Source: a virus
Reading direction: 5' to 3' (one strand)
Virus record (IMG/VR): IMGVR_UViG_3300021256_000097
DNA: 64,000 nucleotides
The notes under the pieces are model-generated. The model was not told the DNA's origin. It saw nothing but the letters and a program-made list of their open reading frames with translations, and did no database searches. Shown here in pieces: positions 1,973 through 60,423 of this stretch. How positions within the stretch are numbered: position 1 is the first letter of the stretch; each line of letters begins with the position of its first letter. The translations under genes and the position numbers were made by a program.

Positions 1973-4663
1973 ATGACAGGACTTACATCTAGTCAGGTTG
2001 AAGCTTCTCGTGCAAAACATGGAAGCAACGTTATTCCAGATTCAGAACCAACAACATTCTGGGCTGAATTTAAGGAAGCACTTGGTGATCCAATGATTAA
2101 GATTCTTATGGCAATTGCCGCTCTTATGATTGGATTGTTCGTAATTGGCGACAATTGTCTTCATCTTGTAAAAGGTATTGATCAGACATTGTTTGAACCA
2201 CTTGGTACTTTGATTGCCGTATTCTTGGTAGCAACAATCTCTGCTAAGACAGCTGTTGGTAGCGACCAGAAGTATCGCGACCTTAAATCACGTTCTGAAA
2301 AGGACAAGGTAAAGGTTCTTCGTGATGGTAAAGTTCAGGTAATTGATGCTGATGACATTGTAGTTGACGATATTGTGCTGCTTCAGTCTGGCGATAAGAT
2401 TCCAGCTGATGGTACTCTTATTGAAGGTAAGCTTAAGGTAAATAACGCAGCTTTGAATGGTGAGACAGAAGAAGCTAAAAAGACTGGCGATGAAAAGTCA
2501 CATATTCCTGAAAATCTTACTGGTGATACATTCGTTGATAAGTCATCACTTTTCCGTGGCGCAATTGTAACAGATGGGGAAGGTTACTTCCGTGTTGAAG
2601 CAGTTGGTCTTGCTACTATGATGGGTAAAATGGCTGAAGAGATGAATGGTGAACAAGTTGATTCACCACTTAAGGTTAAGCTCTCTAAGCTTGCTAACCA
2701 GATTTCAGTATTTGGCTATATTTCAGCTGTTGCAATTGTAGTTCTTTACCTTGTTATGGGTATTGTACATGCTGGTGGTTTTGCTCCATTCTTTACCAAC
2801 TGGCAGGGACTTGTTCATACTATCGTACAAGCCGCAAACCTTGCAATTTTGATTATTGTTTGTGCTGTTCCAGAGGGACTTCCATTGATGATTTCTTTGG
2901 TACTCATGCAGAATACATCTAAGATGCTTGACCATAATGTATTGGTTCGTAAAGCTCAGGGTATTGAAACAGCTGGTTCTTTGAACATTTTGTTCTCTGA
3001 TAAAACTGGTACAATTACAAAAGGACATCTTGAAGTAGTTGAACTTTTTGATGGCGCTGGTAAAGCAACAAAGCCTGCTGAAGCATTCCTTGAATGTGTT
3101 ACAAAGAATACACAGGCTATTATCGAAGGCGACAAAGTAATTGGTGGTAATATGACTGACCAGGCTTTGATGCGCTATGTACTTGAAAACAAGCTTACAG
3201 CCCCTGAAGTTTCTATTGTTAAAGAACAGGGATTCAACTCAGCTAACAAGTTTAGCCAGGCGCAGCTTTCAGATAAAAAGCTTGTATATAAGGGTGCTCC
3301 TGAACGTCTTCTTCCAAACTGTACAAAGTATCTTGATGCAGATGGAAATCTTCAGGATTTCGATGTTAAGCAGCTTGAGCCAAAGATTGACGAAATGGCA
3401 AATAAAGCTATGCGTATGCTCGCATTCGCTTACAAAGCTGACGCAACACTTAAAGAAGATAAAGTACAGGAAGAACTTGTACTTGTAGGTATTGCAGCTA
3501 TTCGTGATGATGTTCGTCCTGAAGCTCGTGATGCTATTGCTGAAGTAAATCGTGCTGGTATCCAGGTTGTAATGATTACTGGTGACCGTCTTGAGACAGC
3601 TGTTGCAATCGCAAAAGATGCTAATCTTCTTGATGAATCTGCAACAATCTTGACTGAAGAAAACAAAGATGAAATGCTTAAGCGTTACAAGGATACTGAA
3701 ACATCAACTGACCGTAAGGGTATCGCAGTTTCTTCTGCAATGCTTAGTACACTTTCAGATGATGAAATCAAGATTCTTGTATCTGGTATCCGTGTAATTG
3801 CGCGTGCTCTCCCAACAGATAAATCTCGTATGGTTCGTATCTGCCAGGAAATGGGACTTGTATGTGGTATGACAGGTGATGGTGTAAACGATTCTCCAGC
3901 TCTTAAAGCTGCTGATGTTGGTTTCGCTATGGGTTCTGGTACAGAAGCTGCAAAGGAAGCTGGCGATTTGGTTATCATTGATGATAACTTTAAGTCAATC
4001 AAAGACGCAATCTTGTTTGGTCGTACAATCTACCACAACATCTTGAAGTTTGTAAGATTCCAGCTTAGTATGAACGTACTTGCAGTACTTGCAACATTGT
4101 TAAGCCCTATCCTTGGTTTCAATGCGCCACTTACAGTTGTAATGTTGCTCTTTGTAAACCTCTGTTGTGATTCATTGGCATCACTTATGTTTGGTCCTGA
4201 ACCAGCTCTTGAAAAGTATATGGATGAAAAGCCACGTAGACGTACAGAATCTATCGTTAGTGGTAAGATGCTTACAAATATCGTTCTTACATCCGTATGG
4301 CTTGCTGCTGTAGGATTTGTAATGATGGCACGTAATGCTGGTACATTGTCAGTATATCAGATGCAGGCTATGTATTTTGTATTCTATATCTGGGGATCAT
4401 TGTTCAATGGATTCCAGTGTCGTTCAGATGGATTTGATATCTTCACTGGTATCAAAGAAAATAAGAACTTCATTAAGATTCCTTTGATTATTGTTGCTGC
4501 TCAGGCTGCAATCGTATGTATTGGTCTTATCCCAGCACTTGCTCCTGTAGGACTTGTATTTGGATGTGAACCAATTGCTGCTAATCTCTGGATTGAAGCA
4601 ATTGTTCTTGGTTTGACTGTACTTCCTATCGGCTGTATCACAAAGATTGGCCGTAAGCGCTAA
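1973..4663 (+). CDS. P-type cation-transporting ATPase (P2-type, Ca2+/Mg2+-like)
   Basis: DKTGTIT phosphorylation motif, MITGD, GDGVNDSPALKAADVGFAMG, and multiple TM segments. 896 aa. Confidence 0.9.
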   Translation: MTGLTSSQVEASRAKHGSNVIPDSEPTTFWAEFKEALGDPMIKILMAIAALMIGLFVIGDNCLHLVKGIDQTLFEPLGTLIAVFLVATISAKTAVGSDQKYRDLKSRSEKDKVKVLRDGKVQVIDADDIVVDDIVLLQSGDKIPADGTLIEGKLKVNNAALNGETEEAKKTGDEKSHIPENLTGDTFVDKSSLFRGAIVTDGEGYFRVEAVGLATMMGKMAEEMNGEQVDSPLKVKLSKLANQISVFGYISAVAIVVLYLVMGIVHAGGFAPFFTNWQGLVHTIVQAANLAILIIVCAVPEGLPLMISLVLMQNTSKMLDHNVLVRKAQGIETAGSLNILFSDKTGTITKGHLEVVELFDGAGKATKPAEAFLECVTKNTQAIIEGDKVIGGNMTDQALMRYVLENKLTAPEVSIVKEQGFNSANKFSQAQLSDKKLVYKGAPERLLPNCTKYLDADGNLQDFDVKQLEPKIDEMANKAMRMLAFAYKADATLKEDKVQEELVLVGIAAIRDDVRPEARDAIAEVNRAGIQVVMITGDRLETAVAIAKDANLLDESATILTEENKDEMLKRYKDTETSTDRKGIAVSSAMLSTLSDDEIKILVSGIRVIARALPTDKSRMVRICQEMGLVCGMTGDGVNDSPALKAADVGFAMGSGTEAAKEAGDLVIIDDNFKSIKDAILFGRTIYHNILKFVRFQLSMNVLAVLATLLSPILGFNAPLTVVMLLFVNLCCDSLASLMFGPEPALEKYMDEKPRRRTESIVSGKMLTNIVLTSVWLAAVGFVMMARNAGTLSVYQMQAMYFVFYIWGSLFNGFQCRSDGFDIFTGIKENKNFIKIPLIIVAAQAAIVCIGLIPALAPVGLVFGCEPIAANLWIEAIVLGLTVLPIGCITKIGRKR

Positions 4664-25608: not shown

Positions 25609-26637
25609 TTGGATTTATCGACTACTATAAATAAGGTTTGGGGAAATACTATTCAGAGTAAACAACCCATTTGGGCTACAAAAGAGATTATTGCAAAAGC
25701 AAATGATCTTTCGAAGAGAAATATAAGAGGAAATCTTGCTAAGTTTGTAAAACCTACAAATATTAGAATGTTTCCTGATGGTGGAATGGATGACCCACTT
25801 TTCGTAGATAGAAACGTTCGTCGTTATGGTACAGACATTTACTTTTTGGATGCAATTGATGATGAAACACAGTTGATTCTTCAGGTAATGCTTAAGCAAG
25901 CACAGGCTGAGTTCCTTGGTGACCATGTGCAGGATATTCTTACACAGACACTTTCTGATACAGTTACTATTCATTTGAATTCGCCAGGTGGATACGCTTA
26001 CTGTGGACTTGCACTCTATGATTTTATTAAGCAGATGCAGGTACCAGTTACTTGTGTAGTTGAAGGTTCTTGTGCATCAGCTGCCACACTTATATTGCTT
26101 GCTTGTGAAGAACGTCATATGCTTGATAACTCAGTATTCTTGATGCATCAGTGCTCTTGGGGCGCTTGGGGTGAAAATCGTTATATGCAGGATGAAGCAG
26201 AAAATAGCCGTAAGCTTATGTCTCGCCTCCGCAAAATTTATCTTGATGAAACAGAAATTGGAAAAGAGTATACTGATCCAAAAGAACGTGAAAGCTATAT
26301 TCAAGCTATTCTTGAACATGACAGATATTTCTCAAAAGAAGAATGTGAAAAGCTTGGTATCTTGAAATGTGATTGTGATGGTGAGCCACCACTTAGTGAA
26401 GCTTCAATTGCAAAGCTTAATGAGTTTGCTCAGAAGTTGTATGAGGAAGAACAGAAAGCTAAGGGAAAAGCTATACCAGCTAAAAAGGACGTAAAAGATA
26501 AAAAAGATACTAAAGAGAAAAAAGTTGATTCAGATGATGATGACAAACCAGCTAAAAAGCCTGGTAAGTCTAAAAAGACTGAAAAGGATTCAGTAGATAA
26601 AGATCCACCAGTTCGTAAGTCAACTAAAAAGGCTTAG
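25609..26637 (+). CDS. ClpP-family serine protease (possibly a prohead protease) with a K/D-rich C-terminal tail
   Basis: LNSPGG, GSCASAA (Ser) and FLMHQ (His) motifs. TTG start after GGGAG. Confidence 0.65.
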   Translation: MDLSTTINKVWGNTIQSKQPIWATKEIIAKANDLSKRNIRGNLAKFVKPTNIRMFPDGGMDDPLFVDRNVRRYGTDIYFLDAIDDETQLILQVMLKQAQAEFLGDHVQDILTQTLSDTVTIHLNSPGGYAYCGLALYDFIKQMQVPVTCVVEGSCASAATLILLACEERHMLDNSVFLMHQCSWGAWGENRYMQDEAENSRKLMSRLRKIYLDETEIGKEYTDPKERESYIQAILEHDRYFSKEECEKLGILKCDCDGEPPLSEASIAKLNEFAQKLYEEEQKAKGKAIPAKKDVKDKKDTKEKKVDSDDDDKPAKKPGKSKKTEKDSVDKDPPVRKSTKKA

Positions 26638-27803: not shown

Positions 27804-28907
27804 ATGGACGAAATCAATGAAATCGTAAAAACATTGACAGAATGGCGGAATGCTTACTACAATGGTAGCCCAGTCGTATCAGACGCTGAGTTCGATGACC
27901 TTGAAGATAAGCTCAGACAGCTTGATCCAGATAACGAATACTTTAATGGAATTGGTGAAGATGAGCTGGATGGCTTTCCAAAAGCAAATCACACTATTCT
28001 TATGGGTAGCCAGGAAAAATGTAATACCGTTGAGGAAATTATCAAGAAGCTTAATCATTTTACTGGTAAAAAAGTTGCAATGCTTGTAGAGCCAAAATGT
28101 GATGGAATCAGTCTTGAATTGAACTACAAAGATGGAAAAGCAACAGCGCATATTACTCGTGGCAATGGTTATGTTGGTGATAACATTACTGTAAACGCTT
28201 CAAAAATGCAGGGTGTACCCGCGGGTATTCCTGTTTCGGAGGGTGTTGCTATTCGTGGCGAAATTATGCTGCTTCATTCTGATAAAGAAAAATATTTCCC
28301 AGAACTTAAGAACTGTCGTAATGGCGCTTCTGGTATTGCAAAGAATAAAGATGGAATCGGATGTGAGCATCTTACCGTTGTATGCTACGATTGCCAGTAT
28401 ACCGACGAGGATAAATCTTTCGGAACAGAAGCAAACAAACTCGACTTTCTTACTCAGTGTGGCTTTATGCGCGTAAATGCGGATATGGTTATTGCTGACT
28501 GTACAACTCCAGCTGGAATTAAAAAAGCTGCTGAAGATTTGATGGCAAAAATGAATGAGTTTACAATGACAGAACGTGAATATGACACTGATGGTGTTGT
28601 TGTTAAGCTCAACATTATCGATGACCACGATCTTCGTACAGAACTTCACCCAAAAACTCAGTGGGCCATTAAACCTGCTCGTGTAGAAGTTGAGACTACT
28701 CTTATCGATATTGAATGGAACATGACAAATGGTAGCCTGGTACCAGTAGCAATCTTTGAACCAGTTGTCCTGGATGGCGCAACAATCCAGCGTGCAAGCC
28801 TTGTAAATGTAGCAGAAATTGAACGTCTTGGCCTGTATATCGGCGCAAAGATTATGGTATCTCGAAGAAATCTTGTAATACCTAAAGTAGAGAGATTAGC
28901 TGCGTAA
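27804..28907 (+). CDS. ligA: NAD-dependent DNA ligase, N-terminal fragment (adenylation plus OB domain only)
   Basis: EPKCDGISLELNY (KxDG) and TRGNGYVGDNIT. It ends right after the OB-fold ...NLVIPKV, which matches LigA DVIPQV. Confidence 0.8.
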   Translation: MDEINEIVKTLTEWRNAYYNGSPVVSDAEFDDLEDKLRQLDPDNEYFNGIGEDELDGFPKANHTILMGSQEKCNTVEEIIKKLNHFTGKKVAMLVEPKCDGISLELNYKDGKATAHITRGNGYVGDNITVNASKMQGVPAGIPVSEGVAIRGEIMLLHSDKEKYFPELKNCRNGASGIAKNKDGIGCEHLTVVCYDCQYTDEDKSFGTEANKLDFLTQCGFMRVNADMVIADCTTPAGIKKAAEDLMAKMNEFTMTEREYDTDGVVVKLNIIDDHDLRTELHPKTQWAIKPARVEVETTLIDIEWNMTNGSLVPVAIFEPVVLDGATIQRASLVNVAEIERLGLYIGAKIMVSRRNLVIPKVERLAA

Positions 28908-31008: not shown

Positions 31009-31839
31009 ATGAATATTAAAGATTTTATCAAGGCAAATCCAAATGCGCAGAAATGGAATCTTCCATCAGTCTGTCCAGTTTGTGGAGCTGATCTTGAACT
31101 TAATGAAAATCATACAGACATCGTTTGTACGAATGAGGGCTGCAAATCAAAGCTTATCGGACGCTTAAAAAAGTGGGCTGAGAAACTTGAAATCAGAGAG
31201 CTTGCTCCTACAACTCTGGAAAAGTTCATTGATGGTGGTCTGATTAAGAATGTATCTGACCTTTATAAAGCAGACTTTTCTGTTATTGCAAATTGGCCCG
31301 GATTTGGTGAGCGTTCCGCTGAAATCTACAAGAAAAACATTTCAAAAGCAACAACTGCAACTCTTGCTCAGTTTATCGCAGGTTATAATATTGGTGATGT
31401 TGGTGAAAAAGTTGTTCAGAAGATTATTGATGCAAAAGGTATCCGCGAACTTTCTGAATTTGCAAATCTCAGAGCAGAAGATCTTGTTTGTGAAGGCGCT
31501 GGTATTACAACCACAAGAAAGCTTATTGATGGAATCTCAGCTGTCTGGGATGATATGCTTGAAACATCTAAGTACGTAGCAATCGAAGTACCAGCAGAAA
31601 AAGATTCTAACAAGCTCGCTGGAATGGTATTCTGCTTCACAGGAAAAGCTTGTCTTCCACGTCCGCAGCTTCAGGCAATGGCGGAAGCAAATGGTGGAAA
31701 GTGTGCTTCTTCAGTATCTAAGAATACAACTTATCTTGTAACTGATGATACAGACACTGGATCAAGCAAGAACAAGAAAGCTGCTGAGCTTGGTATCCCT
31801 GTAATCACATCAGAACAGTTCTTGGAGCTTGTAAAATAA
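31009..31839 (+). CDS. ligA: NAD-dependent DNA ligase, C-terminal fragment (Cys4 zinc finger, HhH, BRCT)
   Basis: CPVCGADL...CTNEGC zinc finger, HhH region, and BRCT (FCFTGK...LVTDD). It has its own promoter at 30983-30992 and its own RBS. Confidence 0.8.
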   Translation: MNIKDFIKANPNAQKWNLPSVCPVCGADLELNENHTDIVCTNEGCKSKLIGRLKKWAEKLEIRELAPTTLEKFIDGGLIKNVSDLYKADFSVIANWPGFGERSAEIYKKNISKATTATLAQFIAGYNIGDVGEKVVQKIIDAKGIRELSEFANLRAEDLVCEGAGITTTRKLIDGISAVWDDMLETSKYVAIEVPAEKDSNKLAGMVFCFTGKACLPRPQLQAMAEANGGKCASSVSKNTTYLVTDDTDTGSSKNKKAAELGIPVITSEQFLELVK

Positions 31840-42892: not shown

Positions 42893-43159
42893 ATGAGAGA
42901 TATGCAAATAACTTTAATTTCAGCTATTACAGCGGCTGGTCTTTACTTTCTTATAAGTCTTTTACCGGAACGTGTAAAAATTATTGTTATGCTAGTATTC
43001 TGCGGAACTGGCTTTGGATTTTGTCTTTATCCAATAGTTACAATGGGCGCTACTGATCCTAGACTTAAGCTTGGTGTATTCTTTTGTGCTATAGGAACTA
43101 TATCTTGGGTTTTAGTTTTAATAAGAAATATTAAAGGAGGAAAACATGGTCGAAGATAA
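42893..43159 (+). CDS. Small membrane protein
   Basis: Two hydrophobic segments. Confidence 0.4.
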   Translation: MRDMQITLISAITAAGLYFLISLLPERVKIIVMLVFCGTGFGFCLYPIVTMGATDPRLKLGVFFCAIGTISWVLVLIRNIKGGKHGRR

Positions 43160-43670
43160 AGTTAAGGTATTTGACTTTCCACTTGAATGTCATACGGCTT
43201 ATTACTTTGCAAAGTGTAAACATGGGGAGGTTCACCAGACTAGAAAAGGAACTGGCGTGCCCTATTTTATTCATCCAAAAGGTGTAGCTTTAATTGTTAA
43301 GCAGCATGGTGGAAACAATGATCAAATAAAAGCAGCACTGCTCCATGATACCCTCGAAGATACGCATACCTCAGATGAAGAATTACGGGTATGCTTTGGA
43401 GAGCATGTTCAGTCTTTGGTACGTGAGCTTACTAACCAGCGATATAAAATTGAAGAGATTGGTAAAGAAGCCTATATGACAGATAAACTTATGCATCTGT
43501 CAAATGAAGCCCTGTTGGTTAAGTTGGCTGATATGCTCTATAATATTTCAGACAATCCAACTGAAGCACAGGAAGTTAGAATGCTTCATAATATTTCTGC
43601 TTTGATTGCAAACAGAAAAGACTTAACTGACAATACAAAACGCCTTGCAGTAATGGTGTTTGGGAGCTAA
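43146..43670 (+). CDS. HD-domain (p)ppGpp hydrolase (small alarmone hydrolase, RelA/SpoT-HD type)
   Basis: RKGTGVPYFIHP...AALLHDTLEDT matches the SpoT hydrolase HD motif. AGGAGG RBS. Confidence 0.7.
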   Translation: MVEDKVKVFDFPLECHTAYYFAKCKHGEVHQTRKGTGVPYFIHPKGVALIVKQHGGNNDQIKAALLHDTLEDTHTSDEELRVCFGEHVQSLVRELTNQRYKIEEIGKEAYMTDKLMHLSNEALLVKLADMLYNISDNPTEAQEVRMLHNISALIANRKDLTDNTKRLAVMVFGS

Positions 43671-44339: not shown

Positions 44340-45026
44340 TGAAGTCTAGAATGTTTACAAACAATTTGTACTAATTTAATTATGATTAGTAATGAAGAGT
44401 TTATAAGCATTGTAGAAAAATGTCAAACAATGGCACTAGCTGCCAAAAAAGTTGGTATGGCCTATACTTCCTTTATTAGGAAGGCAAAAAAACTTGGTTG
44501 TTATAAACCAAATCAAGGCCATAAAGGTGTTAAAACTGGTCATCCATCAAATTGGATCCGGACAGAAGACATCTTAGCTGGTAAGTACCCACAGTATCAA
44601 ACATATAAGTTAAAAGCTAGACTTATAACTGAGGGGTATTTAGAGGACAAATGTTCTTTATGTGGTTGGGATAAAAAGCCAGAAGGAGCAAGATTTACTC
44701 CTTGTGAGCTTGACCATATAAATGGAAATCCAACGGATCACAGATTTGAGAACTTAAGATTGATTTGTCCTAATTGCCATTCTCTTACTGAGACATATCG
44801 TTTCAGAAGAGGTAAGACAAATGAGTCACAAGGTAGGAAACTCCTTGATGAGAATGAGGCTAATTCGACGAACCCTTAACGATAGTTAAAGCGTTATGGC
44901 AACGACGAGCTAAGCAAAATGTGTAGAGACTATACACCTCGTACCTAAACAGAAATGCATGGTAATGAAATAGTCCAGACCACAAACCTTTTGTTTGATA
45001 AGGGTAATGAAAGTTATGGTGGTAAG
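44340..45026 (+). mobile_element. Group I intron in the tRNA-Leu anticodon loop, carrying an HNH homing endonuclease ORF
   Basis: The 5' exon ends in U and the intron ends in G (ggtaag|aaaa). The IGS aagtc pairs with exon gactt. P7 R/S-like elements tagagacta (about 44925) and aatagtcc (about 44970) are present. The insertion site is the same as in the classic tRNA-Leu(UAA) intron. Confidence 0.7.
44382..44879 (+). CDS. HNH homing endonuclease (intron-encoded)
   Basis: CSLCGW...ELDHINGNPTDHRFENLRLICPNCHS is an HNH motif with zinc cysteines. Confidence 0.85.
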   Translation: MISNEEFISIVEKCQTMALAAKKVGMAYTSFIRKAKKLGCYKPNQGHKGVKTGHPSNWIRTEDILAGKYPQYQTYKLKARLITEGYLEDKCSLCGWDKKPEGARFTPCELDHINGNPTDHRFENLRLICPNCHSLTETYRFRRGKTNESQGRKLLDENEANSTNP

Positions 45027-45574: not shown

Positions 45575-45659
45575 GTATCAGTGGTCGAGAGGTCGAAGAC
45601 AGCAGACTGTTAATCTGCCGAGCGAAAGCCCACCACAGGTTCGAACCCTGTCTGATACG
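45575..45659 (+). tRNA. tRNA with anticodon GTT (Asn-like) and an atypically long 16-nt variable region. Identity is uncertain.
   Basis: Acceptor gtatcag/ctgatac. Anticodon stem gcaga/tctgc with loop ctGTTaa. T-arm acagg-ttcgaac-cctgt. Confidence 0.5.
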
Positions 45660-46471: not shown

Positions 46472-47917
46472 GTGAGTAAGGTTAATCAGAAAGCCAGTGT
46501 AGCAGAAGCTAAGAAGGTTTATGTACCGGGCGTTAAGGAAGATGCAAGACGTACTCTTATGACTTGTCTCTTGTGGGAAGATGAATACTATGAAAATGGT
46601 GTTTCAATTGCTGACCGCCTTAGGGGATATGTAAAACGCCTTAGCGAGCAGGATTGTCGTGAATTGTTATTGGAAGCAAAGTTCCAGAACAAGCTTCGCC
46701 ACGCTCCATTATTCTGGGCTGTTCAGATGGCAAAAGAAGGAAAGCTTAAGGCAGACGATGTTGCAAAGATTTGTGACCGTGTAGATACAATGGCTGACCT
46801 TTTGGCTATTTACTTTGATGAAAACCCTCTTTCAGACTCAGAAAAGTCAAAGTGTTATAAAAACGGAAATCGTGTGCACCGTGATAACAAAGCGGTACCA
46901 AAAGCAATTACAAAGGGCCTTCAGAAAGCAATTGAAAACCCAAGATTCGACGAATACGCTTTTGCAAAGTATCGTCTTGAGGATAAAGCAATCAAGACTC
47001 GCGACGTAATTCGTCTTGCACACGTAAAGCCATCAACCCCAGAACGTTCAGCTTTGTATAAGAAAGTACTTGATGGCACACTTGCGACTCCAGATACATG
47101 GGAAGTAGCTATCTCTGCTGCAGGTTCAGACATGAACGCTAAGCGTGACGCTTGGACTCGTTTGCTTTCAGAGAATAAGCTTGGTGTATTGGCATTGCTT
47201 CGTAACCTTAATGGTATGAGCCGTGCAGGTGTTGACCAGGCTAAGATTCGTAAGGCAGTAAAAGCAGCTTCAATTGGTCGTGTACTCCCATTCCAGATTG
47301 TAACTGCTTCAAGACACGCGCCAGAATTGGCAGATGTATTGAACACAAAGTTCATGGAATCTGTTGAAAACGTTGAAAAGCTTGAGGGAGAATCTCTTGT
47401 ACTTGTAGATGTTTCTGGTTCTATGAATGCTCCATTGTCAGCTAAGTCTGATACAAAACGTGTAGACGTAGCTGCTGCTCTTGGAGCTCTTGTAAAGGAA
47501 GTAAGTAAGGGTAGCGTAATCTACGCATTCGACGACAGCCTTAGACCAGTATCAACTGACCTTGCTGGATTGCCACTTGTACGTGAGCTTTCAAGAAATG
47601 GTGGTTGTACTGCAGTAGCAGAGTGTACAGAAAGAGCTATTAAAAACTACAGAAATTCACATGGCGGACGTGATCCAGCTCGTGTTATTGTAGTAACAGA
47701 CGCTCAGGACAACTCTTCTTACAACCGCGGTTGGGGCTGTGAATACGATGTAGCACGTATGCCAAAGGTTCCTTATGGAACTGGTTACATTGTAAATGTT
47801 GGAGCTCAGAAGAATGGCGTTGAATACGCGCTTCACTCTGGCTGGATGACTGTTTACGGATGGTCAGACAATATTGTTAAGTACATTGCAGCTTTGGAAA
47901 ATGAAAGACGCAAGTAA
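46472..47917 (+). CDS. rsr: Ro60/Rsr-like protein (TROVE plus vWA)
   Basis: CLLWEDEYYENG (TROVE-like), ALLRNLNG (Ro60 ALLRNLG signature), and vWA MIDAS LVDVSGSM. GTG start after GAGGAG. Confidence 0.6.
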   Translation: MSKVNQKASVAEAKKVYVPGVKEDARRTLMTCLLWEDEYYENGVSIADRLRGYVKRLSEQDCRELLLEAKFQNKLRHAPLFWAVQMAKEGKLKADDVAKICDRVDTMADLLAIYFDENPLSDSEKSKCYKNGNRVHRDNKAVPKAITKGLQKAIENPRFDEYAFAKYRLEDKAIKTRDVIRLAHVKPSTPERSALYKKVLDGTLATPDTWEVAISAAGSDMNAKRDAWTRLLSENKLGVLALLRNLNGMSRAGVDQAKIRKAVKAASIGRVLPFQIVTASRHAPELADVLNTKFMESVENVEKLEGESLVLVDVSGSMNAPLSAKSDTKRVDVAAALGALVKEVSKGSVIYAFDDSLRPVSTDLAGLPLVRELSRNGGCTAVAECTERAIKNYRNSHGGRDPARVIVVTDAQDNSSYNRGWGCEYDVARMPKVPYGTGYIVNVGAQKNGVEYALHSGWMTVYGWSDNIVKYIAALENERRK

Positions 47918-51210: not shown

Positions 51211-51228
51211 GCTAATCTATTATTGTAA

Positions 51229-51238
51229 ACATATTATA
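51229..51238 (+). promoter_or_regulatory. Promoter core ACATATTATA upstream of the tmRNA
   Basis: Core motif about 60 nt before the tmRNA 5' end. Confidence 0.55.
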
Positions 51239-51297
51239 CAAAGTTAAAAATATTTATTTAAAAAATATTACATTTAAAAAACGTATAAATATATTAT

Positions 51298-51663
51298 GGG
51301 CCTGACTTTGGAATCGATTGGTATCAGAGTAGTCTATGTATCATGCACAGTGGTTATTGTACCCTAAAAGCAACGTAAGTAATCGACGCACAGAACGAAT
51401 ATGCAATGGCTGCGTAAGCAACCTAGCATCTAGAGACTTCGAGAGCTCTAGCGCTTGAACCAACAGATGTAGGTGGTATGGTTTTAAGTGTGGCTACTAC
51501 CTTCTAGGAAGCAGTGAGAGGCGGAGCGAGAGCTTGTAACTGTAACGACAATACTAGGGCAGAATCCGGTTGCCGGTCCCGAATCGAAAAAAGGCTTAAG
51601 CATGTAGAGAAGTACATATTCAAAAAGGTAAGCAAGACGAGAGTTCGAAACTCTCCAGGTCCA
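51298..51663 (+). ncRNA. ssrA: tmRNA (SsrA), standard one-piece form. The tag reading frame is (D)AQNEYAMAA-stop at 51385/51388-51417.
   Basis: The 5' end GGGCCTGACTTTGGAATCGATTGG matches tmRNA GGGGCTGATTCTGGATTCGACGGG. The conserved TAAGCATGTAG motif is present. The 3' tRNA-like end is gagag-ttcgaaa-ctctc plus acceptor caggtcc, which pairs with the 5' gggcctg. The ORF gca cag aac gaa tat gca atg gct gcg taa is present. Confidence 0.8.
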
Positions 51664-51689
51664 GTTCGGTAAATATAACTAATTTAAGT

Positions 51690-52382
51690 ATGGAAACAGA
51701 AAGAATTAGATATATTTATCAAATTACAAATTTGGTTAATGGAAAAACTTATTTTGGTCAACGTACTAGAAGCTTAAAGTATACTTCTTCTTTAGCAGAT
51801 ATGTATTGGGGATCAGGAGTTTTATTAAAAAAAGCTAAAGAAAAATATGGCTTAGAAAATTTTGAGAAGAAAATTATAATAGAGGGTCATTTTTCTAAGG
51901 AACAGATAAATCGCTTTGAAAGATGTATAATACGTATTCAGCGTTTTATAGGTAAAGCAGAGTATAATCTTGCAGATGGTGGTGATGGTGGTGATACCTC
52001 AAGATTTATAGATTATTCCTCAATTGAACGTTCAGAAAATATTTCGAATGCAATGAAGGAAGCTTATAAAGAAGGTAAAATAAAACCACGCGGGTGGACC
52101 TTTCATAAGGGTATGAAAGGGAAACATCAATCTGATGATGCTAAAGAAAAAATTCGAAAGGCACAGTCAGGATGTAAAAATTCACAATATGGCAAGCATC
52201 GTTCTGAAGAAACAAAAAAGCGAATACGAACTGCTTTAGCGAGAGATTATAAAGCTGAATATAAAGAGCTGTATGAAGCTTTTTTAGACCATGTTTTATC
52301 TTCTGATGAAAAAAGGCTTTTTGCTAAGAAATATAATATTGCATATGACTCTATAAATAGAGTTTTAAGGCAATTTATATAG
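51690..52382 (+). CDS. GIY-YIG homing endonuclease (I-TevI/Seg-like, with NUMOD3 repeats), free-standing directly after the tmRNA
   Basis: YIYQITNLVNGKTYFGQ (GIY-YIG), YNLADGGDGGDT, and repeated KGMKGKHQSDDAKEKIRKA / QYGKHRSEETKKRIRTA NUMOD3-like motifs. Confidence 0.85.
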   Translation: METERIRYIYQITNLVNGKTYFGQRTRSLKYTSSLADMYWGSGVLLKKAKEKYGLENFEKKIIIEGHFSKEQINRFERCIIRIQRFIGKAEYNLADGGDGGDTSRFIDYSSIERSENISNAMKEAYKEGKIKPRGWTFHKGMKGKHQSDDAKEKIRKAQSGCKNSQYGKHRSEETKKRIRTALARDYKAEYKELYEAFLDHVLSSDEKRLFAKKYNIAYDSINRVLRQFI

Positions 52383-52483
52383 ATTTCCTTGTTTCAAAGT
52401 AAACAAGGTGGTGGAAGGTTGTATCTAACTGGATACATCCCTCAGTGTTTTTAGGACTTATCTTCTTTCTGCTAATATAGCAG

Positions 52484-52897
52484 TTGGAGGATATGGTTTT
52501 GAAAACATATTTTTTTGTAGCTGTTGTAGTTGCTGGTGTAACTGAATGGCTTAAGAATTTCCTTCCTGCAAAGGTAGTGGAAAACAATAAGGCAATGGCT
52601 GGAATTGCTGGCGCAATGTCAGTAATTGGATCTCTCGCTTACATCTTTATCAATAAAGCAATTAATCCAGATGTAGCTCTTACATGGCAGAATATTATAG
52701 TATTTACTGTAATGGTTGTTGGTCTTGTTCAGGTCAGCTATAATGTACTTGTACAGACTTTCAAAGCTGTTAAAACAAAGCTGACACAGAAAGCGGGTGT
52801 TGATCCAGAAACTGCTGCTGATGAGATTGCTGATAAGGTTATTGAGGGAATTACAAGCGAAGTAACAGGTTTGCCTACAACTAAAAAAGAAAAGTAA
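52484..52897 (+). CDS. Membrane protein, possibly holin-like (speculative)
   Basis: 2-3 TM helices and a charged C-terminus. Confidence 0.4.
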   Translation: MEDMVLKTYFFVAVVVAGVTEWLKNFLPAKVVENNKAMAGIAGAMSVIGSLAYIFINKAINPDVALTWQNIIVFTVMVVGLVQVSYNVLVQTFKAVKTKLTQKAGVDPETAADEIADKVIEGITSEVTGLPTTKKEK

Positions 52898-53995: not shown

Positions 53996-54697
53996 GTGTT
54001 TGAAGAAAAAACTGATTATGAGCTTTTCGCTCAGTACATTAAAAACCCAGGAGCAAATGAGGGAGACAAGAAAGCTGCTCTAACTCAACTCTGGATGCGT
54101 TATGAGGCGCTTACACACAAGATGGGACACGTACTTGAAGCGAGACGCAACAAAGGTAATTTCTACGGACTAGAAACAGAGACTTACTATTCCGATTTTT
54201 ATGATGCTTTCTTGAAGGCAGTTGATGGTTTGCAGCTCAGTAAAATTAAAACTGATCCAAAGACTTGGAAGTTCTGGATTCAGTATAATGGCTACTTGCG
54301 TTCTGCTAATCGTGATAAGATTAATGATTATTGCCGCATAACAAAGCATGAAAGACCAATTACGGTTACAAATGAAGATGGAGAGGAAGTCAGCATTGCA
54401 GATTTATGTGGTTCAGAATATTCTGCTACAATTGAAGATGATTACTTTAAGAGTGAAGAATCAGTAGTTCTTAAAGAAGCAATCAAAAATGCTTATTCAA
54501 AGTTTTCCGATAAGCAGAAGAAGATTTGGTCAATGCGTGAGGGTGGCGATACCTTTACAGCAATAGCTAAATCAATGAATGTATCATCTAGCTCCATTAA
54601 ATATCAGATGAATCGCATTAAAGACGTTTTACGCAGTGAGTTAAACGAGTCAAATAAGCGACATAACACTGAAATTCGTCCTGCTTGCTTAATGTAA
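53996..54697 (+). CDS. Sigma-70-family sigma factor (regions 2 and 4; small, FliA/ECF-like)
   Basis: FLKAVDGLQLSK...WKFWIQYNGYLRSA (region 2.2-2.3-like) and the C-terminal HTH FTAIAKSMNVSSSSIKYQMNRIKDVL (region 4). GTG start after AGGAG. Confidence 0.7.
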   Translation: MFEEKTDYELFAQYIKNPGANEGDKKAALTQLWMRYEALTHKMGHVLEARRNKGNFYGLETETYYSDFYDAFLKAVDGLQLSKIKTDPKTWKFWIQYNGYLRSANRDKINDYCRITKHERPITVTNEDGEEVSIADLCGSEYSATIEDDYFKSEESVVLKEAIKNAYSKFSDKQKKIWSMREGGDTFTAIAKSMNVSSSSIKYQMNRIKDVLRSELNESNKRHNTEIRPACLM

Positions 54698-54743: not shown

Positions 54744-54878
54744 CTAACGCCAGAGTAAAACTTCTGGGTTATTTACGATCTTGGTAGCTGCTCCTTCGAT
54801 TCCAGCTTTCCAATCATAAGTTCCATTCTTAATAGCTTTTTTAATAGCTTTAACCTTTTCTGATTTGATTTTTGGCAT
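54744..54878 (-). CDS. FlgM-like anti-sigma peptide (44 aa), not in the ORF track
   Basis: EKVKAIKKAIKNGTYDWKAGIEGAATKIV matches the FlgM C-terminal sigma-28-binding region ([27 protein letters not shown]). It has its own AGGAGG RBS and a minus-strand ACATATTATG promoter at 54891-54909. Confidence 0.4.
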   Translation of the reverse strand: MPKIKSEKVKAIKKAIKNGTYDWKAGIEGAATKIVNNPEVLLWR

Positions 54879-57353: not shown

Positions 57354-57404
57354 TTCTAGGCTTGTTCTGCGTAGAATACATATTATATATGTTTGGAGTA
57401 CAAT

Positions 57405-58163
57405 ATGACTATTGAAGTTGAAAATAAACAATTTAAGCTTAATGAAATTGAATCTCTTACATTTCAAACATATTTGGCAACATTGAAGGAAACTAAGCCA
57501 AACAAGGATAGATTCCGGATTGTAGTCATTAGCGATGGTGTTCCACAAGAGTATTACCTTCGTCCAAAGTCGCTTGAATATGTTAAAACTAGATGGTGTC
57601 CTACGGGCTTACTCCGAAAATGTGAGCATGTATTACTTGCAAGCAAGCCTTATGTTAAAGGTGAAGTTAGCCATGCAGAAGCACTTTACAAGAGACGCGC
57701 ATCAAATGATGCACAGTTTAAGATACTTTTGAGTCATGTATCAGAAATTGAAGCTGCAATTGGCTATACATTTAATAATAAAAACTTAATTGCTCAGGCC
57801 TTTATCCCTAAGGGCTGCGAAACAAGTATGGTTAATAGTGCTGCATTGGAATTGATTGGTGACCGAGTTCTTTATACAATTGTAATCCAGCATCTTGCAA
57901 AAGTTTGGACTAAAAGCATTAATGGCTATGTAATGGCCGTAAATATGGCTACATTCTCTGATAAAGCAACTGGAGATATTAGTAATCATACTTTTGCAGC
58001 ATTCTTTAAGAAAGCTGATCTTACAAAGTTTTTGCTTTCTACAACAAAAACTTCAAAGAAGATACTTGCAAATGGCTTTGAATCTATTTTCGGGGCAGTT
58101 GCAATTGATACAAATTACAATTTTGATACACTTAATAAAGTGTACGATAAGCTTACTGCATAG
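57405..58163 (+). CDS. RNase III-domain protein
   Basis: AALELIGDRVL (ERLEFLGD-like signature) and ESIFGAVAID (the second catalytic motif). Confidence 0.6.
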   Translation: MTIEVENKQFKLNEIESLTFQTYLATLKETKPNKDRFRIVVISDGVPQEYYLRPKSLEYVKTRWCPTGLLRKCEHVLLASKPYVKGEVSHAEALYKRRASNDAQFKILLSHVSEIEAAIGYTFNNKNLIAQAFIPKGCETSMVNSAALELIGDRVLYTIVIQHLAKVWTKSINGYVMAVNMATFSDKATGDISNHTFAAFFKKADLTKFLLSTTKTSKKILANGFESIFGAVAIDTNYNFDTLNKVYDKLTA

Positions 58164-60126: not shown

Positions 60127-60369
60127 ATGGACAAGAAAACTTTTGAAACAAATGCATCAGTGCATTTTATTTTGGATGGCTGGGAGTTTGAGTGTCGTCA
60201 GTCACACACAGTAAATGATGGAAAATGGTACTTGTATCATTATTCCATTTCACGTGGAGATGACCAGATTGGTGTTGTATCAAATCCCTTCAGTAACTAC
60301 AGCGATTTCCTTTTAAATGCCGGAATTGTTGCTAAGGCTTGGATAAAAAAGAACGGAAAAATCTCATAG
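60127..60369 (+). CDS. Hypothetical protein
   Basis: Coupled start. Confidence 0.45.
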   Translation: MDKKTFETNASVHFILDGWEFECRQSHTVNDGKWYLYHYSISRGDDQIGVVSNPFSNYSDFLLNAGIVAKAWIKKNGKIS

Positions 60370-60423
60370 GATTTATACTTCTACAGATTTATTTACATAT
60401 TATAAATACAAACGGAGGTAATT

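What the first reader, a model, noticed from the sequence alone, without database searches (positions are those of the whole stretch)
51298..51663. Complete phage-encoded tmRNA with a non-canonical ...YAMAA tag
The segment has the conserved tmRNA 5' end (GGGCCTGACTTTGGAATCGATTGG versus GGGGCTGATTCTGGATTCGACGGG), the universal TAAGCATGTAG element, and a 3' T-arm/acceptor that pairs with the 5' end. An in-frame tag ORF is present: (GAC) GCA CAG AAC GAA TAT GCA ATG GCT GCG TAA, giving (D)AQNEYAMAA. This resembles E. coli ANDENYALAA but ends in MAA. The RNA has its own phage promoter (51229-51238). tmRNA genes are rare in phages. A phage-specified degradation tag, together with the ClpP-family protease at 25609-26637, could reflect phage control of ribosome rescue and proteolysis.
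Basis: partly seen in the sequence, partly recalled or inferred. Interest (0 to 1): 0.8.

Follow-up and report, generated by a model that had tools for sequence, protein, structure and literature searches.

The report
Phage-encoded tmRNA with ordinary degradation tag
This giant phage carries a complete gene for tmRNA, the RNA that frees stalled ribosomes and marks unfinished proteins for destruction, but such genes are already known in large phages and its tag ending is common in bacteria.

Summary
ARAGORN and the Rfam tmRNA model (54.1 bits against a threshold of 47; E 1.9e-18) both call a complete one-piece tmRNA at 51298-51663 (+).

- **Anatomy:** it has a G3·U acceptor stem, a T-arm, helix H2, a plausible pseudoknot PK1, and a tag frame giving (A)DAQNEYAMAA with its stop in a hairpin loop.
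- **Relatives:** five metagenomic relatives share the tRNA-like ends. Ten base pairs differ on both sides yet still pair, so the fold is under selection.
- **Promoter:** the motif ACATATTATA is real. It occurs 59 times against 12 expected, nearly all on the + strand.

- **Tag:** ...YAMAA is not unusual. A truncated scan found it in tmRNAs of at least 101 bacterial species, and gut Akkermansia tags end ...NEYAMAA.
- **Protease:** the "ClpP" at 25609-26637 looks like a prohead maturation protease. The window has no ClpX, ClpA or SmpB.
- **Rarity:** tmRNAs occur in about 2.3% of phage genomes and are known in huge phages.

Two additions. A mobile GIY-YIG homing-endonuclease cassette sits exactly at the tmRNA 3′ end. 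Sister phages keep the same tRNA-like domain but encode a very different, basic tag.

Verdict: a new, divergent member of a known kind, of modest interest.

The parts
51223..51239 (+). Promoter-like motif TTGTAAACATATTATAC (core ACATATTATA at 51229-51238), 59 nt upstream of the mature tmRNA 5' end
   Evidence: Core motif: 59 hits with at most 1 mismatch against 12.2 +/- 3.6 expected, almost all on the + strand and intergenic. Extended motif: 6 hits against 0.59 expected. It precedes both ORFs and this RNA gene, which favours a transcription signal over a translation signal (inference).
51298..51663 (+). One-piece tmRNA gene, 366 nt, ending at discriminator A; CCA not encoded
   Evidence: ARAGORN. 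Rfam RF00023 at 54.1 bits, above the gathering score of 47, E 1.9e-18, full-length match.
51298..51304 (+). Acceptor stem 5' strand GGGCCUG; G3 forms the G·U pair that is the AlaRS identity element
   Evidence: All 7 pairs form with 51656-51662, including G3·U. The identity-element role is established knowledge.
51318..51346 (+). Helix H2 5' strand (sub-helices 51318-51320, 51322-51325, 51335-51341, 51342-51346)
   Evidence: All sub-helices pair with 51600-51635. Against the sister subfamily, 9 H2 pairs are changed on both sides and still pair.
51350..51373 (+). Pseudoknot PK1: S1 GUGGU/ACCCU (51350-51354 with 51361-51365), S2 UUGU/GCAA (51357-51360 with 51370-51373), A-rich loop 3
   Evidence: Found by inspection and checked by script. 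S1 has 4 of 5 pairs and S2 has 4 pairs. The sister subfamily has the same layout with different sequence (AAGGU/ACCUU and CCG/CGG).
51385..51417 (+). Tag reading frame: resume codon GAC, then GCA CAG AAC GAA UAU GCA AUG GCU GCG, stop UAA (51415-51417); product (Ala)-DAQNEYAMAA
   Evidence: ARAGORN coding part 88-120. U and A at -5 and -4 before GAC match E. coli (UAGUC|GCA; from memory) and the sister subfamily (UAACU|GCA).
51408..51423 (+). H5-like hairpin GGCUGC-GUAA-GCAACC, with the stop codon inside the GNRA-type loop
   Evidence: Coordinates. 5 of 6 pairs form (read from the sequence). Corresponds to the stem after the tag in the Rfam alignment.
51600..51635 (+). Helix H2 3' strand; the conserved element UAAGCAUGUAG spans 51597-51607
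   Evidence: Rfam alignment; pair check.
51639..51655 (+). T-arm GAGAG-UUCGAAA-CUCUC
   Evidence: 5-bp stem. Three stem variants in the family all pair (GAGAG/CUCUC, GGGAG/CUCCC, CUGGG/CCCAG).
51656..51663 (+). Acceptor 3' strand CAGGUCC plus discriminator A; followed by GUU, so CCA must be added after transcription
   Evidence: The window's two tRNAs also lack an encoded CCA.
51690..52382 (+). GIY-YIG/NUMOD3 homing endonuclease gene, starting 26 nt after the tmRNA; part of a mobile cassette inserted at the tmRNA 3' end
   Evidence: TIGR01453 at 61.5 bits, above its cut-off of 56; NUMOD3 3.9e-10. Homologues (48-51% identity) sit at the same position in L020 and L021. Presence/absence polymorphism: a 724-bp insert begins exactly after the discriminator base.

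Best explanation
This is a functional, phage-encoded one-piece tmRNA (ssrA) that works with host factors.

Proposed steps; all are inferred from established tmRNA biology unless marked as shown:
1. It is transcribed from the phage's own promoter class (ACATATTATA at 51229-51238; motif shown) as a precursor with a 5' leader of about 50 nt.
2. RNase P cuts at G1 (51298). The 3' trailer is trimmed to the discriminator A (51663), and a CCA-adding enzyme supplies the CCA that the gene lacks.
3. AlaRS charges it with alanine through the G3·U pair (pair shown).
4. With SmpB and EF-Tu it enters ribosomes stalled on broken or stop-less mRNAs. Neither SmpB nor an EF-Tu gene was found in the window, so these are probably host proteins or encoded elsewhere in the ~573-kb genome.
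5. Translation resumes at GAC (51385) and adds Ala-DAQNEYAMAA, stopping at UAA (51415-51417; frame shown).
6. The ...YAMAA end is the same as the natural tag end of many bacteria (shown). Host ssrA-tag proteases of the ClpXP type should therefore degrade the tagged fragments.

The likely benefit is to keep ribosomes recycling when infection, or host anti-phage nucleases, flood the cell with cleaved mRNAs.
For: - Two independent detectors agree on the coordinates.
- All tRNA-like-domain features are present and pair.
- Five relatives (L001, L019-L022) have tmRNAs scoring 57-65 bits. Their tRNA-like ends match the window's: the 5' 24 nt and the acceptor 3' strand are identical and only the T-arm varies. 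Between the two subfamilies, 10 pairs in H2 and the T-stem are changed on both sides and still pair. PK1 keeps its layout with different sequence. This argues for selection on the fold.
- The tag ending YAMAA occurs in 101 bacterial tmRNAs from a truncated scan.
- The promoter-like motif is strongly enriched.
- The locus is 100% identical in an independent sample.
- Phage tmRNAs are an established class (PMC4131195, PMC7162821, PMC9004378).
Against: - There is no expression or aminoacylation data.
- The Rfam score is low (54 bits, against 131-188 for six bacterial YAMAA tmRNAs), and the PK2-PK4 region aligns poorly.
- The MFE z-score is -0.11. That is uninformative for a pseudoknotted RNA, but it gives no support.
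- No SmpB or CCA-adding enzyme was found in the window or around the relative's tmRNA.
- The host is unknown, so the match between the phage tag and the host tag is untested.
- Only two sequence types exist, so the covariation rests on a single comparison.
Confidence: 0.78

Rival explanations
1. Decoy or inhibitor. The RNA mainly titrates host SmpB, AlaRS or EF-Tu and so dampens the host's own trans-translation, rather than performing productive tagging.
For: The tRNA-like ends are the parts held constant between subfamilies whose remaining sequence is only about half identical. Mycobacteriophage DS6A carries little more than a tmRNA tRNA-like domain, and such a molecule inhibits tmRNA (PMC4131195). 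No phage SmpB was seen.
Against: A decoy needs no PK1, no resume context, no intact in-frame tag ending in ...AA, and no stop codon in an H5-like hairpin. All of these are present here, and both subfamilies keep an open tag frame.
Confidence: 0.08
2. A phage-specific degradation tag works together with the phage 'ClpP' (25609-26637), giving the phage its own rescue-and-proteolysis axis.
For: The protein has a ClpP-fold domain (PF00574, 1.8e-19; PDB ClpP chains down to 2.6e-14). It is not embedded in an obvious structural-gene module; its neighbours are a dCMP deaminase and a ligase.
Against: Its best matches are phage head-maturation protease models (phrog_94 at 3e-33; NF045542 at 87 bits). 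It falls far below every ClpP equivalog cut-off. No ClpX- or ClpA-type unfoldase was found among the scanned window ORFs. The tag ending is a common bacterial one, not phage-specific. The two genes are 25 kb apart.
Confidence: 0.05
3. Passenger or landing pad. The gene persists mainly because it is the homing site of the adjacent GIY-YIG endonuclease cassette, or it is a decaying host-derived copy (for example an att-site remnant) with no role in infection.
For: The endonuclease cassette is inserted exactly at the tmRNA 3' end and is polymorphic. tmRNA genes are classic integration sites, and ssrA fragments occur in prophages (PMC9004378). The Rfam score is low.
Against: The gene is full length, not a 3' fragment. 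No integrase was found among the neighbours. No bacterial genome shares its 5' 20-mer, and identity to any sampled bacterial tmRNA is at most 68%. Compensatory changes maintain the helices. It has its own promoter-like motif.
Confidence: 0.06

Closest known systems
Bacterial one-piece tmRNA (SsrA; Rfam RF00023), e.g. E. coli SsrA and the YAMAA-tagged tmRNAs of Fibrobacterota, Chlorobi, Bacteroidota and Akkermansia
   Same: The architecture matches: acceptor stem with G3·U, T-arm, H2 with the UAAGCAUGUAG element, PK1, a short tag ending in a hydrophobic residue plus AA, and a stop codon in H5. The last seven tag residues (NEYAMAA) are identical to those of animal-gut Akkermansia tmRNAs.
   Different: It is encoded by a phage. 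It is strongly diverged: 54 bits against 131-188 for six bacterial examples, and at most 68% identity to any of the 105 sampled tmRNAs. The fourth acceptor pair is C-G. The resume codon is GAC (Asp), which from memory is less usual than the common GCN (Ala). The PK2-PK4 region is not recognisably canonical.
Known phage-encoded tmRNAs: cluster C mycobacteriophages (Bxz1 and others), Bacillus phage G (PMC4131195), huge phages (PMC7162821), and 402 of 18,146 phage genomes (PMC9004378)
   Same: A complete ssrA carried by a large lytic-type phage alongside tRNA genes and other translation- or RNA-related genes.
   Different: There is no sequence relative among 50,697 GenBank phage records. It belongs to a small, uncultured lineage known from six loci. 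A homing-endonuclease cassette sits at its 3' end. Sister phages carry a very different tag.
Methylophilales phage Melnitz and pelagimyophage tmRNAs (PMC9004378)
   Same: A virally encoded tmRNA placed behind a phage promoter. The proposed roles are the same: maintaining the hijacked translation machinery, or tagging proteins for degradation.
   Different: Those tmRNAs are two-piece (permuted), and that of Melnitz (and of Pelagibacter phage Mosig) carries a glutamine riboswitch. This one is one-piece, and no other Rfam family reached its gathering score anywhere in the window.
Phage T4 SegB, a free-standing GIY-YIG homing endonuclease in the tRNA gene cluster (recalled from the literature, not read here)
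   Same: A free-standing GIY-YIG endonuclease gene lies next to tRNA-like genes and is present or absent between related phages. Sequence changes cluster beside the insertion point. The nearest other homologues (L146, L147) sit inside tRNA arrays.
   Different: Here the neighbour is a tmRNA. Cleavage specificity is untested.

Membership tests
tmRNA (RF00023) | Covariance-model match above the curated gathering score over the full model | tested here: met
   54.1 bits against 47, E 1.9e-18, model positions 1-374, not truncated. ARAGORN agrees.
tmRNA (RF00023) | tRNA-like domain: a 7-bp acceptor stem formed by the 5' and 3' ends, with G3·U and discriminator A, and a T-arm with a UUCRA-type loop | tested here: met
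   7 of 7 pairs form, including G3·U. The T-stem has 5 bp and the loop is UUCGAAA. Three compensatory T-stem variants occur in the family.
tmRNA (RF00023) | Long helix H2 linking the tRNA-like domain to the body, with the conserved UAAGCAUGUAG 3' strand | tested here: met
   Sub-helices of 3, 4, 7 and 5 bp pair in both subfamilies. Nine H2 pairs are changed on both sides and still pair. The element lies at 51597-51607.
tmRNA (RF00023) | Pseudoknot PK1 just upstream of the resume codon | tested here: inconclusive
   An H-type pseudoknot can be drawn (S1 with 4 of 5 pairs, S2 with 4 bp, AAAA in loop 3). The sister subfamily has the same layout with different sequence. No tool here scores pseudoknots, and only two sequence types exist.
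tmRNA (RF00023) | Short in-frame tag ORF with a proper resume context, ending in a hydrophobic ...AA and a stop codon | tested here: met
   The frame is GAC...GCG UAA at 51385-51417, with U and A at -5 and -4. The tag DAQNEYAMAA ends like 101 bacterial tags.
tmRNA (RF00023) | Pseudoknots PK2-PK4 in the 3' body | tested here: inconclusive
   Posterior probabilities in the Rfam alignment are low there. Hairpins and one possible pseudoknot (CUAGAG/CUCUAG with UUCGAG/CUUGAA) were found by inspection only. From established knowledge, these pseudoknots are dispensable in E. coli.
tmRNA (RF00023) | Partner SmpB available; alanylation and trans-translation activity | not testable with these tools
   No SmpB was found among the window ORFs scanned or near the relative's tmRNA. 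The rest of the ~573-kb genome and the host could not be read.
ClpP (ATP-dependent Clp protease proteolytic subunit), for the protein at 25609-26637 | Score above a ClpP equivalog cut-off, and a ClpX or ClpA partner | tested here: not met
   ClpP models score 35-62 bits against cut-offs of 228-361. The best hit is NF045542, 'head maturation protease, ClpP-related' (87 bits, cut-off 120), and phrog_94. No Clp unfoldase was found in the window.
GIY-YIG homing endonuclease (free-standing, Seg-like), for the protein at 51690-52382 | GIY-YIG and NUMOD3 domains, plus presence/absence polymorphism at a fixed site between related genomes | tested here: met
   TIGR01453 scores 61.5 bits, above its cut-off of 56.05, and NUMOD3 scores 3.9e-10. 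A 724-bp insert begins exactly after the tmRNA discriminator base in L020 relative to L019, flanked by 95-96% identity. Cleavage activity was not tested.

The most novel reading that the evidence does not exclude
This uncultured giant-phage lineage keeps a fixed tRNA-like domain on its tmRNA but changes the message. One branch encodes a host-type degron (...NEYAMAA). The sister branch encodes a long basic tag (ATKRSVVARGSRAAFARAA). That would suggest phages tune what happens to rescued polypeptides rather than simply copying the host system. In addition, a dedicated lineage of GIY-YIG homing endonucleases would use the T-arm and 3' end of tmRNA and tRNA genes as its homing site, spreading between tmRNA alleles and rewriting the T-arm as it goes.
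Probability: 0.25. Interest if true: 0.55.

Novelty: new member of a known kind. Interest (0 to 1): 0.27.

Why it matters
The finding adds a well-documented, strongly diverged tmRNA to the translation and RNA-quality-control toolkit of a roughly 573-kb uncultured phage. The same window also carries tRNAs, a Ro60-like protein, an RNase III and a RelA/SpoT-type hydrolase domain.

It also corrects two tempting over-readings. The ...YAMAA tag is a normal bacterial variant. The 'ClpP' is most likely a capsid maturation protease.

Two points could be worth a small follow-up: the mobile endonuclease cassette inserted exactly at the tmRNA 3' end, and the contrast between two very different tags on one conserved tRNA-like domain. 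Neither changes how phage tmRNAs are currently understood.

Tried and rejected
- **GenBank phage searches:** blastn of the tmRNA and megablast of 45-58 kb against 50,697 records found nothing.
- **16-mer probe:** CTGACTTTGGAATCGA in IMG/VR gave 17 chance hits with no tmRNA at the matched site. L009 holds an unrelated permuted tmRNA elsewhere on the contig.
- **3' T-arm probe:** it found only L001.
- **5' 20-mer in 185,579 bacterial species genomes:** zero hits, so no donor or host was identified this way.
- **Global alignment to 105 bacterial tmRNAs:** identity was at most 68%. The top value, 0.73, was an artefactual 682-nt ARAGORN call. No donor was identified.
- **RNAalifold on spliced tRNA-like-domain/H2 constructs:** it mis-registered H2 because MAFFT offset the subfamilies by one base. 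I replaced it with an explicit helix-by-helix check.
- **Whole-molecule MFE z-score:** -0.11, uninformative.
- **Terminator scan:** no + strand terminator after the gene.
- **Y-RNA search next to the Ro60-like gene:** no Rfam hit.
- **Host inference:** comparison with isolated phages by helicase and rIIB gave no close isolate. Shine-Dalgarno use (28 of 50 ORFs) only argues weakly against a Bacteroidota host.
- **Exact-sequence look-up of the 505-aa Ro60-like ORF:** it failed because the called gene starts 24 codons later.
- **att-site remnant or host contamination:** considered and rejected. The gene is full length, it is flanked by phage motifs on both sides, and it is identical in independent assemblies.

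Full report

Yes. ARAGORN reports a one-piece tmRNA at 51298-51663 on the + strand, with tag peptide DAQNEYAMAA*. The Rfam tmRNA covariance model (RF00023) matches 51298-51666 over its full length at 54.1 bits. The gathering score is 47 and the E-value is 1.9e-18.

- the 5' end GGGCCTGACTTTGGAATCGATTGG;
- TAAGCATGTAG at 51597-51607;
- a 3' strand CAGGTCC that pairs with GGGCCTG, including the G3·U wobble, followed by discriminator A;
- the frame GAC GCA CAG AAC GAA TAT GCA ATG GCT GCG TAA at 51385-51417.

One detail needs correcting. CCA is not encoded, because the gene is followed by GTT. The window's tRNA-Gln and tRNA-Asn also lack an encoded CCA. So do 64 of the 101 bacterial YAMAA tmRNA genes sampled, so this is unremarkable.

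**2. Anatomy (window coordinates)**

- **Acceptor stem:** 51298-51304 with 51656-51662, 7 bp.
- **T-arm:** 51639-51655, GAGAG-UUCGAAA-CUCUC.
- **H2:** sub-helices at 51318-51320/51633-51635, 51322-51325/51627-51630, 51335-51341/51612-51618 and 51342-51346/51600-51604.
- **PK1:** an H-type pseudoknot can be drawn at 51350-51373. S1 is GUGGU/ACCCU with one mismatch, S2 is UUGU/GCAA, and loop 3 is AAAA.
- **Resume codon:** ARAGORN chooses GAC. It is preceded by U and A at positions -5 and -4, as in E. coli (UAGUC|GCA; from memory of the literature) and in the sister subfamily (UAACU|GCA). The added peptide would therefore be Ala-DAQNEYAMAA.
- **Stop codon:** it lies in the GUAA loop of a hairpin, GGCUGC-GUAA-GCAACC, at 51408-51423.
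- **3' body (PK2-PK4 region):** it forms hairpins, but it aligns poorly to the model and could not be resolved.
- **MFE z-score:** -0.11 for the whole molecule. That carries no information for a pseudoknotted RNA.

**3. Context**

The window is phage-like. It carries a DnaB-type helicase, NAD-dependent ligase pieces, rIIB (about 40% identical to T4-like and jumbo-phage rIIB), a prohead-type protease and homing endonucleases. It has no nucleotide relative among 50,697 GenBank phage records.

The GIY-YIG protein just downstream is found, residue for residue, twice on a 940,564-bp ENA scaffold, 573,277 bp apart. The second copy runs off the contig end. That pattern suggests a circular genome of about 573 kb assembled past its end (inference). 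A contig from another JGI sample is 100% identical across 51504-52897, so the locus is not a chimera.

The sample name and the relatives' accessions suggest a rumen or gut source. This is inferred from the names only.

**4. Promoter**

Nearly all copies are on the + strand and intergenic, typically 5-34 nt before start codons. The longer form, TTGTNNACATATTATA, has 6 matches against 0.59 expected.

The motif precedes a non-coding RNA gene as well as ORFs. That favours a transcription signal over a translation signal (inference). The copy at 51229-51238 lies 59 nt before the mature 5' end, which implies a leader removed by RNase P. No + strand terminator follows the gene, so read-through into the endonuclease gene is likely.

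**5. Relatives and selection on the fold**

The 5' 20-mer finds one IMG/VR contig (259 kb) and four metagenome contigs. It finds no bacterial genome among 185,579 species. All five loci carry tmRNAs scoring 57-65 bits.

Their first 24 nt and their acceptor 3' strand are identical to the window's, and only the T-arm between them varies. The rest is only about half identical, and the tag is completely different: ATKRSVVARGSRAAFARAA. The helicase is 41% identical, so these are distant cousins.

Comparing the two subfamilies helix by helix, all pairs of H1, H2 and the T-stem form in both. Ten pairs are changed on both sides yet stay paired. PK1 keeps its layout with different sequence. A third T-stem variant (CUGGG/CCCAG) also pairs. 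This is good evidence for a maintained tmRNA fold, with the caveat that it rests on only two or three sequence types.

**6. Is ...YAMAA non-canonical?**

No. I scanned the genome collection for TTCGA, then 70-100 nt, then the coding sequence for YAMAA and a stop. ARAGORN found tmRNAs in 105 of those loci, and 101 of them have tags ending in YAMAA.

They come from Fibrobacterota, Chlorobi, Bacteroidota, Ignavibacteria, Planctomycetota, Desulfobacterota-type lineages, Bacteriovoracaceae, Treponema, one Lachnospiraceae genome and Akkermansia. Animal-gut Akkermansia tags (AYSKNEYAMAA, AYSNNEYAMAA, AYSDNEYAMAA) share the window's last seven residues.

No sampled bacterial tmRNA is close in overall sequence (at most 68% identity). 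Bacterial examples score 131-188 bits on the Rfam model, against 54 here. The phage gene is old and diverged, not a recent capture.

The host remains unknown. Frequent GGAGG Shine-Dalgarno sequences argue weakly against Bacteroidota.

**7. The 'ClpP' link**

The protein at 25609-26637 has a ClpP-fold domain. Its best matches, however, are phage head-maturation protease models: phrog_94 at 3e-33, and NF045542 at 87 bits. True ClpP equivalogs score 35-62 bits against cut-offs of 228-361.

From established knowledge, ssrA tags are read by ClpX, ClpA, SspB and other proteases, not by ClpP itself. No such unfoldase and no SmpB turned up among the 62 window ORFs scanned with Pfam. The proposed axis is unsupported.

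**8. How it most likely works**

See the best explanation. The most likely reading is a working tmRNA that relies on host RNase P, the CCA-adding enzyme, AlaRS, SmpB, EF-Tu and host ssrA-tag proteases. It would serve to recycle ribosomes when mRNAs are being cut during infection.

What is shown: the fold elements, the tag frame, the promoter motif and conservation with compensatory change. What is inferred: processing, charging, tagging and the benefit to the phage.

The rivals are a decoy role, coupling to the phage ClpP-like protein, and a passenger or landing-pad role. Each is less consistent with the intact, conserved mRNA-like part.

**9. An addition: a mobile endonuclease at the tmRNA 3' end**

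The gene 26 nt downstream (51690-52382) is a GIY-YIG/NUMOD3 endonuclease (TIGR01453 above its cut-off). Homologues at 48-51% identity occupy the same position in L020 and L021, but not in L001, L019 or L022.

L020 and L019 are 96% identical up to the tmRNA's discriminator base. L020 then has a 724-bp insert that replaces 15 bp, and 95% identity resumes after it. Nine of the twelve tmRNA differences between these two alleles lie in the T-arm, right next to the insertion.

The nearest other homologues sit in tRNA arrays. This looks like a Seg-type homing endonuclease that targets T-arm-containing genes. Cleavage was not tested.

**10. Novelty and score**

Phage tmRNAs are established. They are listed for mycobacteriophages and Bacillus phage G (PMC4131195) and for huge phages together with SmpB (PMC7162821). 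They occur in 2.3% of 18,146 phage genomes (PMC9004378).

This is a new, divergent member of a known kind. A specialist would not be surprised by the gene, by its lack of an encoded CCA, or by its tag. The endonuclease association and the tag swap between cousins are modestly interesting.

Interest is 0.27.

Noticed in passing
window 41690-62502 = ENA ERZ28612970 scaffold_1, record positions 352862-373554 and 926139-940564 (L023, L024): The same region occurs twice on a 940,564-bp scaffold, 573,277 bp apart, and the second copy runs off the contig end. This suggests a circular genome of about 573 kb, which would be among the largest phage genomes.
   Followed up: partly
L001 1110-1487 (-), L019 7732-8109, L020 1151-1528, L021 852-1230 (-), L022 2226-2603 (-): Sister-lineage tmRNAs keep the window's 5' 24 nt and acceptor 3' strand (only the T-arm varies) but encode a long basic tag, ATKRSVVARGSRAAFARAA, ending ...ARAA. 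Whether any host uses such a tag was not checked.
   Followed up: partly
L020 1529-2252 versus L019 8110-8124; window 51664-52382: A 724-bp GIY-YIG endonuclease cassette is inserted exactly after the tmRNA discriminator base, as a clean presence/absence polymorphism. The adjacent T-arm is rewritten: 9 of the 12 differences between the two tmRNA alleles lie there.
   Followed up: yes
L146 and L147, 3001-3261: The closest other homologues of the endonuclease in IMG/VR lie inside arrays of eight tRNA genes, reminiscent of T4 SegB.
   Followed up: partly
window 46472-47917 (+) and 45575-45659 (+): A Ro60/TROVE-plus-vWA protein (TROVE 2.1e-10) is encoded 3.4 kb upstream of the tmRNA. An odd 85-nt tRNA-Asn(GUU) with a 14-nt variable arm lies 0.8 kb before it. 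No Y-RNA family hit was found between them.
   Followed up: partly
window 44808-44999 (+), overlapping the HNH ORF at 44382-44879: A weak group I intron match (26 bits against a gathering score of 50, E 3.7e-4) lies at the 3' end of an HNH endonuclease ORF. Whether a host gene is interrupted here is unknown.
   Followed up: no
whole window, e.g. 18610, 19315, 26691, 28952, 30148, 33971, 35482, 39795, 41121, 51229, 57378, 62928: ACATATTATA is a pervasive + strand intergenic motif, with about 34 exact copies in 64 kb. It is probably the main phage promoter class. A sigma-like protein (53996-54697) and a weak FlgM-like anti-sigma ORF (54744-54878, - strand) are encoded nearby.
   Followed up: partly
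window upstream of 11255, 37122, 41449, 44382, 48661 and 51690; also L020 and L021 upstream of the endonuclease gene: A second short motif, (A)CTAATT, sits about 6-10 nt before the start codon of several ORFs that lack a Shine-Dalgarno sequence. These include both homing-endonuclease genes.
   Followed up: no
window 1973-4663 (+): A full-length P-type cation-transporting ATPase (E1-E2 ATPase 2.9e-35, plus the N- and C-terminal cation ATPase domains) is encoded in a phage genome.
   Followed up: no
window 27804-28907 and 31009-31839 (+): The NAD-dependent DNA ligase appears split into two genes about 2 kb apart: adenylation plus OB domains in one, and zinc-finger, HhH and BRCT domains in the other.
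   Followed up: no
window 43146-43670 and 57393-58163 (+): A stand-alone RelA/SpoT-type HD (HD_4) hydrolase domain and an RNase III homologue lie in the same region as the tRNAs, the Ro60-like gene and the tmRNA. Together they suggest a cluster for RNA and stress-signal handling.
   Followed up: no
window 60159-60378 versus L023 18470-18569: This is the only difference between the window and the ENA scaffold: 220 nt in the window against 100 nt in the scaffold. It is probably a scaffold gap.
   Followed up: no
L009 13045-13489: An unrelated IMG/VR contig, picked up by a chance 16-mer match, carries a permuted (two-piece) tmRNA with tag ANANTTEEEVMTFVWDLPANESRYALAA, next to seven tRNA genes.
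   Followed up: no
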